A DNA stretch of 64,000 nt, from the NCBI GenBank assembly GCA_000091205.1, contig AP006502.2, one strand, 5' to 3'. The stretch is from Cyanidioschyzon merolae. Taxonomy: Eukaryota. The translations under genes and the position numbers were made by a program. The notes beneath the pieces were generated by a model. The model saw nothing but the letters and a program-made list of their open reading frames with translations. It did no database searches and was not told where the DNA came from. This document shows, piece by piece, positions 56,057-58,135 of this stretch (position 1 is its first letter; each line of letters begins with the position of its first letter).

Positions 56057-58135
56057 ATGGACAGCCACCAAAATATGTTCGTCCATAAATTCGTGCTTGC
56101 GCGCACATTTTTAACAGTAGGAGATAATACGGTGTGCACCGTCAAAGGACTCCGCTCTACCTCTCTCAAGTCCCGTTTTGTGCCGATAGTCTCCCACGAT
56201 TTTCGTGTTCGGAAAATGTTCGCAGCCTCGGCGCTGCCTCTATGGAGTTCCAGGTCTTGCAATGTTGCTGTTGCATCCGCGAGGGCGAACGTGGTGCGGC
56301 AACACAGTCATATCGAAGGCGCAGGCCGACCTCGGCGGCATCGCTTTAAGATGTGCTTTGCAGCAACCAGAGAGCACGATGACGACAGAAATTTTCGAGT
56401 GGGTGAGGATTTTTTGGCTAAAGCTCGCGCTTCTGCTGAGGATTTACGTGCACGTCTCTGCACAGTCGCGGACGGAAAGTTGCGAGTTATCTCTCTGATC
56501 ACTTATACGGACACGCAGTTAAGGCCTCTGGCACCTGAGAAAAGAACAAGCTCTACTCGAGTTAACGGCTGTACTTCGGTAACGTTTGTCGAGCCACACT
56601 TTGGAACGACTTGCGGGGGCGAAACCTGCGTCAGGTACCTCGAGGGTTATTCTGACTCGCGCCTCGCAAGCGGAGCAATTGTTTTGTTGTCCTTGGCACT
56701 CTGTGGAAAAACGCTTCCAGAGATTGAGCGCTTTCGGGCGGATACGCTTCTCGAGTCTTTTTGTTTGCGCGAGATCGTGATGTCGCCCCGAATGGGAGGC
56801 GTAAAAGCCATTCTGCGGCACGTTCAAGAACGAATGCAAGTCGTATGCAGCGGGCGCCATCTCGCGCCGCAAGAACCTGCAACGCTCACCCAGAAGTCTT
56901 ACAGCGCAAACCTTGATGTTGTAGGACCTGTTCTAGGGGACGAATCGCCTGCAGAGGTTGCGGTCCTGCTCTCTGGTGGGGTCGACTCCGCTGTCGCGAT
57001 GGCTTCTTTGTTGGAGCGAGGATTCCGAGTGCAGCCCTTTTATCTCAAGATATGGCTGGAGGACGAACTAGCCAATTTGGGCCGTTGCCCCTGGGAGGAC
57101 GATATCCGGGACGCCGAGAAGGTCTGCGCAGCACTGGCCCGAAAGTACAACCAAAGGGTGCAACTCGAGACACTATCTCTCCAAGAGGAATACTGGAGTC
57201 GTGTCGTCCAGTATACAATAGACGAGGCGCGCCGAGGGCGAACGCCGAACCCTGACATCATGTGCAACAGCCGAATCAAATTTGGGGCCTTCCTGGATTC
57301 TTTGGGTCAGAGATACGCTCTAGTAGCTAGTGGGCACTATGCCCGGGTAGTAACTATGCGGCATACTGAGAGGGGAGGCGAGACGCATGCTGTGGCGCAG
57401 CTCTTCTGCTCCCCTGACATCGTCAAAGATCAGACGTACTTTCTCTCGCAGCTGTCCCAGCAGCAATTGTTGAAAGCTACATTTCCCATAGGTGACTTGA
57501 CAAAGAGCGCGGTCCGTCGACTCGCTCGGGAACGCTATAATCTGCCTAATTGTGACCGACCAGACTCTCAGGGTATTTGTTTTCTAGGAAAATTGAAATT
57601 CGAACAATTTCTCGAGCATTACCTTGGCACCTGGGCGGGGCCCATCATGGAGGCAGAGTCGGGTCGATTTTTGGGCACGCATCGAGGATTTTGGTTCTAC
57701 ACCATAGGACAGCGGAAAGGGCTGGCACTGCCTGGCGGCCCTTGGTACGTCGTCGGAAAAGATCTAGAGAACAACATCGTGTTGGTCAGTCGAGAACGTT
57801 CACAATGCAACGTGACTTGTCGCTCGTTTATTGTGGAAAATGTGAACTGGATCGGATGGGAACATAGCAACACTAACGAAGAACCCATGCGATGTCGCGT
57901 GAAGATCCGTCACGGTCCAAGAAGCGTGTCAGCAGAGGTCCACTGCCTAGAACCGAAAAATCAGTCTTGGATCATTGCTCTCGATGAACCGGAGTCTGGT
58001 ATTGCCCCGGGGCAGTTTGCAGTGTTTTATAGAGAAAACCAGTGCCTTGGGGGCGGCGTCATCGCTTCGGTACCCGCGCTACAAGTGTCCCGAACAATCC
58101 AGAGACGCAGCATGACCGAGGAGTGCACCATCTAG
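56057..58135 (+). CDS. MNMA: SufE-domain / tRNA-specific 2-thiouridylase MnmA fusion protein (organellar targeting likely)
   Basis: Residues ~130-270 carry the SufE signature: VNGCTSVTFVEP (V.GC.S.vWl), GYSDSRLASGAIVLLSLALCGKTLPEI (dSDA.IVkGL...g.tp.EI) and MSPRMGGVKAILRHVQ. The remainder is MnmA: PP-loop VAVLLSGGVDSAVAM, then NPDIMCN...ASGHYAR...DQTYFL...SQGICFLG and the C-terminal barrel. The N-terminus is S/A/R-rich and transit-peptide-like. Confidence 0.8.
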   Translation: MDSHQNMFVHKFVLARTFLTVGDNTVCTVKGLRSTSLKSRFVPIVSHDFRVRKMFAASALPLWSSRSCNVAVASARANVVRQHSHIEGAGRPRRHRFKMCFAATREHDDDRNFRVGEDFLAKARASAEDLRARLCTVADGKLRVISLITYTDTQLRPLAPEKRTSSTRVNGCTSVTFVEPHFGTTCGGETCVRYLEGYSDSRLASGAIVLLSLALCGKTLPEIERFRADTLLESFCLREIVMSPRMGGVKAILRHVQERMQVVCSGRHLAPQEPATLTQKSYSANLDVVGPVLGDESPAEVAVLLSGGVDSAVAMASLLERGFRVQPFYLKIWLEDELANLGRCPWEDDIRDAEKVCAALARKYNQRVQLETLSLQEEYWSRVVQYTIDEARRGRTPNPDIMCNSRIKFGAFLDSLGQRYALVASGHYARVVTMRHTERGGETHAVAQLFCSPDIVKDQTYFLSQLSQQQLLKATFPIGDLTKSAVRRLARERYNLPNCDRPDSQGICFLGKLKFEQFLEHYLGTWAGPIMEAESGRFLGTHRGFWFYTIGQRKGLALPGGPWYVVGKDLENNIVLVSRERSQCNVTCRSFIVENVNWIGWEHSNTNEEPMRCRVKIRHGPRSVSAEVHCLEPKNQSWIIALDEPESGIAPGQFAVFYRENQCLGGGVIASVPALQVSRTIQRRSMTEECTI

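What the first reader, a model, noticed from the sequence alone, without database searches (positions are those of the whole stretch)
56057..58135. SufE domain fused to the tRNA 2-thiouridylase MnmA
A single 692-aa ORF combines a SufE sulfur-acceptor domain with a complete MnmA. The SufE part carries the conserved V-x-G-C-x-S active-site Cys and the SDS...GKTLPEI block. The MnmA part has PP-loop SGGVDS and catalytic Cys regions. SufE normally receives persulfide from SufS. Fusing it to MnmA implies a dedicated SufS to SufE to MnmA sulfur relay for s2U34 tRNA modification. This most plausibly operates in a plastid-type SUF compartment, given the transit-peptide-like N-terminus. The known E. coli route is IscS-Tus-MnmA. 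I am not aware of this fusion being characterised.
Basis: partly seen in the sequence, partly recalled or inferred. Interest (0 to 1): 0.6.

Follow-up and report, generated by a model that had tools for sequence, protein, structure and literature searches.

The report
Plastid-type SufE–MnmA fusion, red alga
This is a real gene of the red alga Cyanidioschyzon merolae in which a sulfur-carrier domain (SufE) is joined to the tRNA-thiolating enzyme MnmA; the same fusion has already been noted in the malaria and Toxoplasma plastid enzymes, so it is a sound but not a new discovery.

Summary
ORF 56057..58135 (+), 692 codons, holds a SufE domain (Pfam PF02657, residues 141-258, above the curated cut-off) followed by a complete three-domain MnmA (TIGR00420, 359 bits). 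Residues 54-692 are identical to the annotated Cyanidioschyzon merolae 10D protein BAM83251.1. The SufE cysteine (Cys172) aligns with E. coli SufE Cys51. It is kept in all 104 homologues that have the domain. The MnmA part is a D-type enzyme (C344, D400-x-x-C403, C508).

The fusion is widespread in red algae, diatoms, brown algae and Chromera. It was absent from the 80 best prokaryotic mnmA loci. Diatom and brown-alga orthologues have N-termini I read as bipartite plastid targeting signals.

It is also not new. The SufE domain was reported in apicoplast TgMnmA in 2022. A SufE-like domain and the same relay were proposed for PfMnmA in 2023. There SufS, but not free SufE, was needed for apicoplast maintenance, which the authors take as a proxy for tRNA thiolation.

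The domain's role is still untested anywhere, and this compact, GC-balanced protein would be a good test object. Interest is modest.

The parts
56057..58135 (+). Maximal ORF, 692 codons plus stop. There is an in-frame stop three codons upstream of Met1.
56216..58135 (+). CDS as annotated in C. merolae 10D (start at Met54, 639 aa, BAM83251.1).
   Evidence: identical sequence
56216..56407 (+). Non-conserved N-terminal presequence (residues 54 to about 117), starting MFAASALP. The first 50 residues are 20% Ala, 16% Arg+Lys and 2% Asp+Glu. Probable plastid transit peptide.
   Evidence: composition. (11-23% identity to orthologues here). (all listed Cyanidiales-group orthologues start with MF).
56477..56830 (+). 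SufE sulfur-acceptor domain (residues 141-258).
   Evidence: PF02657, 47.6 bits. (profile against E. coli SufE, E 8e-24). (model against 3g0m, 1mzg, 8vbs; TM 0.77-0.80).
56570..56572 (+). Codon of Cys172, the predicted persulfide-accepting cysteine (RVNGCTS). It aligns with E. coli SufE Cys51.
   Evidence: alignment. (Cys in 104 of 104 homologues that have the domain).
56831..56953 (+). Non-conserved linker (residues 259-299). The stretch 266-299 has no regular secondary structure in the model and its pLDDT falls to about 44-64.
   Evidence: low pLDDT. (6-33% identity; linker length 4-74 aa, median 35, across 104 fusions).
56954..57592 (+). MnmA catalytic HUP / PP-loop ATP-pyrophosphatase domain (residues 300-512).
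56972..56989 (+). PP-loop SGGVDS (residues 306-311), the ATP site for adenylation of U34 C2.
   Evidence: Invariant.
57254..57265 (+). D400-I-M-C403, the D-x-x-C motif of D-type MnmA (E. coli Asp99/Cys102).
   Evidence: Classification from PMC7025502.
57578..57580 (+). Codon of Cys508 (E. coli Cys199 equivalent), the second catalytic cysteine.
   Evidence: Cys in 120 of 120 sequences.
57605..57793 (+). MnmA PRC-barrel domain (residues 517-579).
57821..58063 (+). MnmA C-terminal beta-barrel domain (residues 589-669).

Best explanation
This is a nuclear gene of Cyanidioschyzon merolae for a plastid-targeted, two-module tRNA 2-thiouridine(34) synthase. The steps below are labelled as shown, literature or inferred.

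1. The N-terminal presequence imports the protein into the plastid stroma (inferred).
2. The SufE domain docks on the plastid class II cysteine desulfurase SufS/NFS2 and takes the persulfide sulfur onto Cys172, as free SufE does on Cys51 (inferred from homology).
3. The SufE domain is tethered by a non-conserved linker of about 35-40 residues. It delivers the persulfide to the MnmA active site, most likely to Cys508 (inferred).
4. MnmA adenylates C2 of U34 through its PP-loop. The persulfide sulfur replaces the oxygen and Cys403 resolves the disulfide. This is the established D-type mechanism of E. coli MnmA.
5. The substrates would be the plastid-encoded tRNA-Lys(UUU), tRNA-Glu(UUC) and tRNA-Gln(UUG) (inferred).

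On this view the fused SufE domain replaces the TusA/BCD/E relay of E. coli. It gives tRNA thiolation its own entry point on the single plastid desulfurase, independent of the free SufE that feeds SufBCD.

What is shown here is the domain content, the conserved residues, the fold, the distribution and the presequences. The sulfur path is inferred.
For: Domain identity.

The acceptor cysteine is under selection. Cys172 is kept in 104/104 fused homologues. The Asp of the SD(A/S) motif and the Arg of (S/T)R..G are invariant across the 21 diverse fused domains. In one search they align with the GDSDA and PSRSQG motifs of E. coli SufE. From my own count of that sequence these are Asp74 and Arg119.

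The MnmA residues C344, D400, C403 and C508 and the PP-loop are invariant.

The fusion is old and conserved. It is found in Cyanidiales, Porphyridium, Gracilaria, Rhodosorus, diatoms, a brown alga and Chromera velia, including complete MMETSP transcripts.

It looks eukaryote-specific. The best 80 prokaryotic mnmA loci match only the MnmA part, and no SufE ORF lies within 3 kb of them.

The nearest non-fused relatives of the SufE domain include plastid-type SufE-BolA (SUFE1-like) proteins, 30 of 144.

Plastid targeting: diatom P0100 has a hydrophobic leader followed by ASAFVP, and brown-alga P0057 has GYSFVS. The listed Cyanidiales-group orthologues start with MF.

The AlphaFold model has pLDDT 87.7 and pTM 0.86 despite a disordered linker. 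This suggests a defined docking of the SufE domain on MnmA.

Literature: TgMnmA has a SufE domain and is in the apicoplast (PMC9420914). In P. falciparum, SufS and MnmA but not free SufE are needed for apicoplast maintenance. The authors propose that the SufE-like domain of PfMnmA receives sulfur from SufS (PMC10219651).
Against: No step of the sulfur transfer has been measured for any member of this fusion family.

B. subtilis MnmA, which lacks a SufE domain, could replace PfMnmA in the apicoplast without its own desulfurase, although only in one of four attempts (PMC10219651). So a SufE domain is not strictly required for a MnmA to get sulfur there.

Several groups report that D-type MnmA can bind a labile [4Fe-4S] cluster (PMC13066941). 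This leaves the persulfide chemistry itself in dispute.

Localisation of the C. merolae protein is predicted, not observed. I could not read model coordinates, so the Cys172-Cys508 distance is unknown.
Confidence: 0.62

Rival explanations
1. The SufE domain does not feed sulfur into the tRNA. It supplies sulfur for building or repairing a labile [4Fe-4S] cluster on the MnmA module (ligands D400, C403, C508), and the cluster then does the thiolation. This would parallel plant SUFE3, where a SufE domain fused to quinolinate synthase NadA is thought to serve NadA's own cluster.
For: The SufE-NadA precedent is described in PMC8003979. E. coli D-type MnmA is reported to bind a cluster with 2 Cys + 1 Asp ligands, and the matter is unsettled (PMC13066941). 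The three putative ligands are invariant in 120/120 sequences here.
Against: Shigi et al. class D-type enzymes as Fe-S independent and found no C-type (CxxC) enzymes in organelles (PMC7025502). The same three residues are equally required by the persulfide mechanism, so their conservation does not discriminate between the two ideas.
Confidence: 0.15
2. The SufE domain is only a docking and activating module. It recruits SufS and stimulates it, but sulfur passes directly from the SufS persulfide to the MnmA cysteines, as between YrvO and MnmA in B. subtilis.
For: Swift et al. favour a direct, B. subtilis-like transfer. They could replace PfMnmA with SufE-less BsMnmA once in four attempts (PMC10219651; PMC11702754).
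Against: Cys172 is kept in 104/104 fused domains although the rest of the domain has diverged to 18-45% identity. That is hard to explain for a purely structural adaptor.
Confidence: 0.12
3. The protein is mitochondrial or dually targeted. It would then be the cell's MTU1 equivalent rather than a plastid enzyme.
For: The presequence is basic and poor in acidic residues, which also fits mitochondrial presequences. I could not check whether C. merolae has a separate MTU1 gene.
Against: SufE partners with class II SufS, which in photosynthetic eukaryotes is described as part of the chloroplast SUF machinery (PMC8003979). Diatom and brown-alga orthologues carry what I read as ER signal plus ASAFAP-type plastid signals. 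The apicomplexan orthologues are in the apicoplast (PMC9420914; PMC11702754 Table 2).
Confidence: 0.08
4. The fusion is an artefact: two adjacent genes are read as one because of a missed stop, frameshift or intron.
For: None found.
Against: The frame is open for 692 codons. The reference annotation has the same single product. Seven nearly identical copies from independent metagenome assemblies are full length. Complete transcripts from diatoms encode both domains (P0072, P0118). More than 100 homologues have the same architecture.
Confidence: 0.01

Closest known systems
Apicoplast MnmA of Toxoplasma gondii (TGGT1_309110) and Plasmodium falciparum (PF3D7_1019800), plus the Babesia, Theileria and Eimeria orthologues
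   Same: The order of parts is the same: targeting sequence, SufE(-like) domain, then D-type MnmA. Both sit in a plastid of red-algal ancestry that has SufS. The same relay hypothesis (SufS to SufE domain to MnmA) has been published for them (PMC9420914, PMC10219651).
   Different: The parasite proteins are much longer (1083 aa in P. falciparum, about 1600 aa in T. gondii). PMC10219651 describes the P. falciparum gene as extremely AT-rich and of low complexity, and its SufE-like domain was called only at the structural level. The C. merolae protein is compact, at about 575 residues without the presequence. It passes the Pfam SufE cut-off and has a clear GC(T)S cysteine loop. Direct sequence orthology to the parasite proteins was not computed here.
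E. coli IscS-TusA-TusBCD-TusE-MnmA relay
   Same: The same terminal enzyme type (D-type MnmA with PP-loop, Asp99/Cys102/Cys199 equivalents) and the same logic of passing a persulfide through carrier cysteines.
   Different: Here the desulfurase would be class II SufS instead of IscS. One covalently attached SufE domain stands in for five Tus proteins.
B. subtilis YrvO-MnmA pair
   Same: A short route from a desulfurase to MnmA with no Tus proteins.
   Different: B. subtilis uses a dedicated desulfurase gene next to mnmA and no carrier domain. Here the dedicated part is a carrier domain fused to MnmA, and the desulfurase is shared with Fe-S assembly.
Plant SufE-domain fusions SUFE1 (SufE-BolA) and SUFE3 (SufE-NadA)
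   Same: A plastid SufE domain is fused to a client or regulator, giving that client private access to NFS2/SufS. SufE-BolA proteins are among the nearest relatives of this SufE domain.
   Different: The partner domain is a tRNA-modifying enzyme, and SufE is at the N-terminal side of it. The algal Fe-S inventory (PMC8003979) lists only SUFE1-3 and never mentions tRNA (0 occurrences of the term), so this fourth architecture is missing from it.

Membership tests
SufE/CsdE sulfur-acceptor family (Pfam PF02657) | Profile match above the curated threshold | tested here: met
   47.6 bits against a gathering score of 27, residues 141-258. The profile of fused domains matches E. coli SufE at E 8e-24 and CsdE at 9e-17.
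SufE/CsdE sulfur-acceptor family (Pfam PF02657) | Conserved persulfide-accepting cysteine in the G-C-x-S loop (E. coli SufE Cys51) | tested here: met
   Cys172 in RVNGCTS aligns with IQGC(51)QS. It is invariant in 104/104 homologues.
SufE/CsdE sulfur-acceptor family (Pfam PF02657) | SufE fold | tested here: met
   The AlphaFold model superposes on 3g0m, 1mzg, 8vbs_C and 5nq6 with target TM 0.76-0.80 and rmsd 2.8-4.1 A.
SufE/CsdE sulfur-acceptor family (Pfam PF02657) | Accepts persulfide from SufS and stimulates its activity | not testable with these tools
   This needs a biochemical assay.
MnmA/TrmU tRNA 2-thiouridine(34) synthase (TIGR00420), D-type | Equivalog HMM above its cut-off over the full length | tested here: met
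   359.2 bits against 236.95, profile positions 2-351 of 351. All three Pfam domains are found. The model matches 2hma and 2deu with TM 0.84-0.87.
MnmA/TrmU tRNA 2-thiouridine(34) synthase (TIGR00420), D-type | PP-loop SGGxDS and the C-DxxC-C motif | tested here: met
   SGGVDS at 306-311, C344, D400-x-x-C403 and C508, all invariant in the family alignment. The motif definition is from PMC7025502.
MnmA/TrmU tRNA 2-thiouridine(34) synthase (TIGR00420), D-type | Forms s2U34 on tRNA-Lys, -Glu and -Gln | not testable with these tools
   This needs an enzymatic or in vivo assay.
C-type (Fe-S, CxxC) MnmA of cyanobacteria and thermophiles | CC-CxxC-C motif | tested here: not met
   Asp400 occupies the first position of the xxC motif. 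It is therefore not the cyanobacterial type described in PMC7025502.
Apicomplexan-type SufE-MnmA fusion (TgMnmA/PfMnmA) | SufE(-like) domain N-terminal to MnmA in one polypeptide | tested here: met
   The architecture of the parasite proteins is taken from PMC9420914 and PMC10219651.
Apicomplexan-type SufE-MnmA fusion (TgMnmA/PfMnmA) | Located in a plastid | tested here: inconclusive
   There is a transit-peptide-like presequence, and orthologues have ASAFAP-type signals. No targeting predictor or experiment was available for this protein.
Apicomplexan-type SufE-MnmA fusion (TgMnmA/PfMnmA) | Sequence orthology to the parasite proteins | not tested
   The parasite sequences were not at hand. 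The fusion in Chromera velia, which I understand to be a photosynthetic relative of Apicomplexa, was found (P0236).
Plant SUFE3 (SufE-NadA) | Quinolinate synthase domain fused to SufE | tested here: not met
   No NadA match was found in the protein. It is an analogue, not a member.

The most novel reading that the evidence does not exclude
The SufE-MnmA fusion may be an innovation of the red-algal ancestor, inherited by all plastids of red origin (stramenopiles, chromerids, apicomplexans). On this view a non-cyanobacterial, persulfide-dependent D-type MnmA replaced the cyanobacterial Fe-S (C-type) enzyme in an organelle that has only the SUF system. The fused SufE domain became the obligatory private adaptor to SufS. 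It would be a fourth class of plastid SufE protein, missing from algal Fe-S inventories. The compact C. merolae protein could then settle in vitro both the relay question left open in Plasmodium and the dispute over persulfide versus Fe-S chemistry in D-type MnmA.
Probability: 0.45. Interest if true: 0.5.

Novelty: new member of a known kind. Interest (0 to 1): 0.3.

Why it matters
s2U34 is needed for accurate decoding of Lys, Glu and Gln codons. How organelles route sulfur to it is known in detail only for bacteria and mitochondria. In malaria parasites the SufS-MnmA route is essential for the apicoplast. The role of the SufE-like domain could not be tested there, because PfMnmA could not be cloned for expression (PMC10219651).

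The work here shows that the same architecture is ancestral. It occurs in a clean, compact form in red algae and their plastid descendants. That gives a protein well suited to biochemistry and, to my knowledge, a genetically tractable organism in which to test the relay. It also fills a gap in algal Fe-S and sulfur-trafficking inventories, which list only SUFE1-3.

It does not change the current picture. It supports a hypothesis that is already published.

Tried and rejected
1. A single-sequence phmmer search of the SufE region against PDB gave only weak SufE/CsdE hits (E 0.05-0.3). The top of the list held TAL-effector repeat proteins at E about 3e-4. Those scores are sums of about 11 individually insignificant repeat matches to residues 238-280, so I rejected them as an artefact. 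A family profile then gave E 8e-24 to SufE.

2. The search for homologous proteins with the SufE-domain alignment returned only 3 proteins, which is a limit of its word index. I replaced it with the exhaustive representative search.

The scan with the full-length alignment found only MnmA-only prokaryotic genes.

4. I looked for a sufE gene next to the closest prokaryotic mnmA genes, using an HMM of A1 on six-frame ORFs of all 83 fetched loci. None was found. No desulfurase or SufE was seen in the three metagenome loci either.

5. Cluster look-ups of the closest bacterial proteins gave no organism names.

6. The afdb50 fold library was not available. So I obtained no organism-labelled list of full-length structural matches, and the green lineage and glaucophytes were not assessed.

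7. Model coordinates are not exposed, so I could not measure the Cys172 to Cys508 distance.

8. I considered and rejected a gene-model artefact, a C-type Fe-S MnmA and a bacterial contaminant. The window carries typical C. merolae nuclear genes and a spliceosomal intron.
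Full report
**Observation.** The window carries an uninterrupted ORF of 692 codons at 56057..58135 on the + strand. An in-frame stop lies three codons upstream of Met1. Pfam finds four domains in order:
- SufE (PF02657): residues 141-258, 47.6 bits against a cut-off of 27.
- tRNA_Me_trans HUP: residues 300-512, 206 bits.
- PRC barrel: residues 517-579.
- C-terminal barrel: residues 589-669.

NCBIfam's MnmA equivalog TIGR00420 matches end to end at 359 bits (cut-off 237). 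Solved MnmA structures (2hma, 2der, 9hlv) match at E about 1e-70.

**Source and gene model.** Residues 54-692 are identical to the Cyanidioschyzon merolae 10D protein BAM83251.1 / XP_005539287.1. That protein is 639 aa and is annotated only as a tRNA methyltransferase/thiouridylase. The window is therefore C. merolae nuclear DNA, and the annotated start is Met54 (window 56216). Neighbouring genes are ordinary nuclear genes: topoisomerase VI-B, an alpha/beta hydrolase, valyl-tRNA synthetase, a histidine acid phosphatase, an eIF-2B family protein and a protein kinase. There are no SUF genes among them.

**Is the SufE part a real, functional-looking SufE?** A single-sequence search was weak and was polluted by a TAL-repeat artefact. 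A profile built from 21 diverse fused domains (A1) matches E. coli and Salmonella SufE over their full length at E 8e-24, and CsdE at 9e-17.
- In that alignment Cys172 (RVNGCTS) lies on SufE Cys51 (IQGCQS).
- The Asp of the SD(A/S) motif aligns with the GDSDA motif of SufE, and the Arg of SPRMGG aligns with its PSRSQG motif. From my own count of the E. coli sequence these are Asp74 and Arg119.
- Cys172 is present in all 104 homologues that have the domain. The domain has otherwise diverged to 18-45% identity.

An AlphaFold model of residues 110-692 has mean pLDDT 87.7 and pTM 0.86. Confidence is low in the linker. Its N-terminal module superposes on SufE and CsdE structures (TM 0.72-0.80). The rest superposes on MnmA (TM 0.84-0.87).

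**The MnmA part.** It has the PP-loop SGGVDS and the C344 / D400-x-x-C403 / C508 pattern, invariant in 120/120 sequences. This is the D-type of Shigi et al., who report that cyanobacteria have the Fe-S dependent C-type and that organelles have only D-type (PMC7025502). In line with that, the closest prokaryotic MnmA sequences (46-50% identity) come from Planctomycetota, Dependentiae/Babeliales, Gracilibacteria, Oligoflexia, Limisphaerales and Gemmatimonadaceae. None is from cyanobacteria. The scan used two fixed peptide patterns, so this is indicative only.

**Distribution.** The top 120 homologues are almost all SufE+MnmA fusions. Named ones are red algae (Cyanidiococcus, Cyanidium, Porphyridium, Gracilaria, Agarophyton, Gracilariopsis, Purpureofilum, Rhodosorus), diatoms (Cyclotella, Seminavis) and a brown alga (Discosporangium). 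They include complete MMETSP transcripts. Chromera velia also has the fusion.

In one genome for each of 185,579 prokaryotic species, the 80 best mnmA loci match only the MnmA part of the query. An HMM of the SufE domain finds nothing within 3 kb of them. The exhaustive search with the SufE profile gives 4416 cluster representatives at E up to 0.001. Of the 144 best not used for the profile, 30 carry BolA (SUFE1-like), 24 carry MnmA domains, 3 carry a cysteinyl-tRNA synthetase domain and 1 carries NadA. So the fused domain belongs with plastid-type SufE.

**Targeting.** The region before about residue 118 is not conserved. From Met54 it is rich in Ala and Arg and nearly free of acidic residues. 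All listed orthologues of the Cyanidiales group begin with MF. A Phe close to the N-terminus is, to my knowledge, typical of red-algal transit peptides. Diatom P0100 has a hydrophobic leader followed by ASAFVP, and brown-alga P0057 has GYSFVS. These resemble the ASAFAP-type bipartite plastid signal as I know it. No predictor was available, so localisation of the C. merolae protein remains a prediction.

**Comparison with what is known.** The fusion has been seen before. Yang et al. reported a SufE domain plus tRNA_Me_trans domains in TgMnmA and localised it to the apicoplast (PMC9420914). Swift et al. found a SufE-like structural domain in the N-terminal extension of PfMnmA and of the Babesia, Theileria, Toxoplasma and Eimeria orthologues (PMC10219651). 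They proposed that it could receive sulfur from SufS and pass it to MnmA. They also showed that SufS and MnmA, but not free SufE, are required for apicoplast maintenance.

The domain was not tested, because PfMnmA could not be cloned for expression. SufE-less B. subtilis MnmA could substitute once in four attempts. Neither paper looks at algae. A review of SUF components in algae lists only SUFE1-3 and does not mention tRNA at all (PMC8003979). Further searches found no other description.

**Mechanism.** A plastid SufS persulfide is taken by Cys172 of the tethered SufE domain. It is handed to the MnmA cysteines, probably Cys508, and inserted at the adenylated C2 of U34 of plastid tRNA-Lys, -Glu and -Gln. 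This gives tRNA thiolation its own adaptor on the single plastid desulfurase. It also explains why free SufE is dispensable for this function in Plasmodium.

The domain identities, the conserved residues and the distribution are shown here. The sulfur path is inferred.

The rivals are:
- The SufE domain serves a labile Fe-S cluster on MnmA, by analogy with SUFE3-NadA.
- The domain only docks and activates SufS.
- The protein is mitochondrial or dually targeted.
- The fusion is a gene-model artefact. This one is excluded.

**Verdict.** What this analysis adds:
- The fusion is general in red algae and red-derived plastid lineages.
- It is absent from the closest prokaryotic relatives.
- Its acceptor cysteine is universally conserved.
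- C. merolae offers a compact version suited to the decisive experiments.

Interest is modest (0.3). I rate the novelty as a new member of a known kind.

Noticed in passing
window 45202..48405 (+); intron 46878..47045: The valyl-tRNA synthetase gene is split into two ORFs by a 168-nt spliceosomal intron. It has a GTAAGT 5' site, a CTAAC branch point 26 nt before the 3' site, and ends in TAG. Removing it gives one 1011-aa ORF that reads DVLDTW|FSSGLWPF across the junction. To my knowledge introns are very rare in C. merolae.
   Followed up: yes
loci L004-L012, L081: The closest prokaryotic relatives of the MnmA module (46-50% identity) are from Planctomycetota, Dependentiae/Babeliales, Gracilibacteria, Oligoflexia, Limisphaerales and Gemmatimonadaceae, not cyanobacteria. 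This fits the report that cyanobacteria have C-type MnmA and organelles have D-type. It suggests the plastid enzyme is not of cyanobacterial origin. No tree was built, and the scan used two fixed peptide patterns.
   Followed up: partly
proteins P0184 and two others among the 144 in A3: A SufE domain is also found fused to cysteinyl-tRNA synthetase. An example is the 547-aa protein of the dinoflagellate Polarella glacialis (CAE8738302.1), with SufE at residues 89-224. Three of the 144 closest SufE relatives have this architecture.
   Followed up: no
proteins P0070, P0094, P0102, P0107: Four SufE-MnmA homologues of about 1140-1190 aa from unnamed assemblies carry an additional SET domain (PF00856). 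This could be a real three-part fusion or merged gene models.
   Followed up: no
protein P0192: A cyanobacterial 879-aa 'DVUA0089 family protein' (Leptolyngbya sp. 7M, WP_211620349.1) has a SufE domain at its extreme C-terminus (residues 741-875).
   Followed up: no
window 56768..56896 (ORF residues 238-280): The last SufE helix plus the start of the linker (EIVMSPRMGGVKAILRHVQERMQVVCSGRHLAPQEPATL) gives summed phmmer E-values of about 3e-4 to TAL-effector repeat proteins. Each repeat match is insignificant on its own. I treated this as a repeat-summing artefact.
   Followed up: yes
window 56057..56215: There are 53 in-frame codons upstream of the annotated start. They include Met1 and Met7, and Met7 is followed by Phe like the annotated MF start. 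Seven nearly identical metagenome-derived proteins were called at the full 692 aa. Which start is used is not settled.
   Followed up: partly
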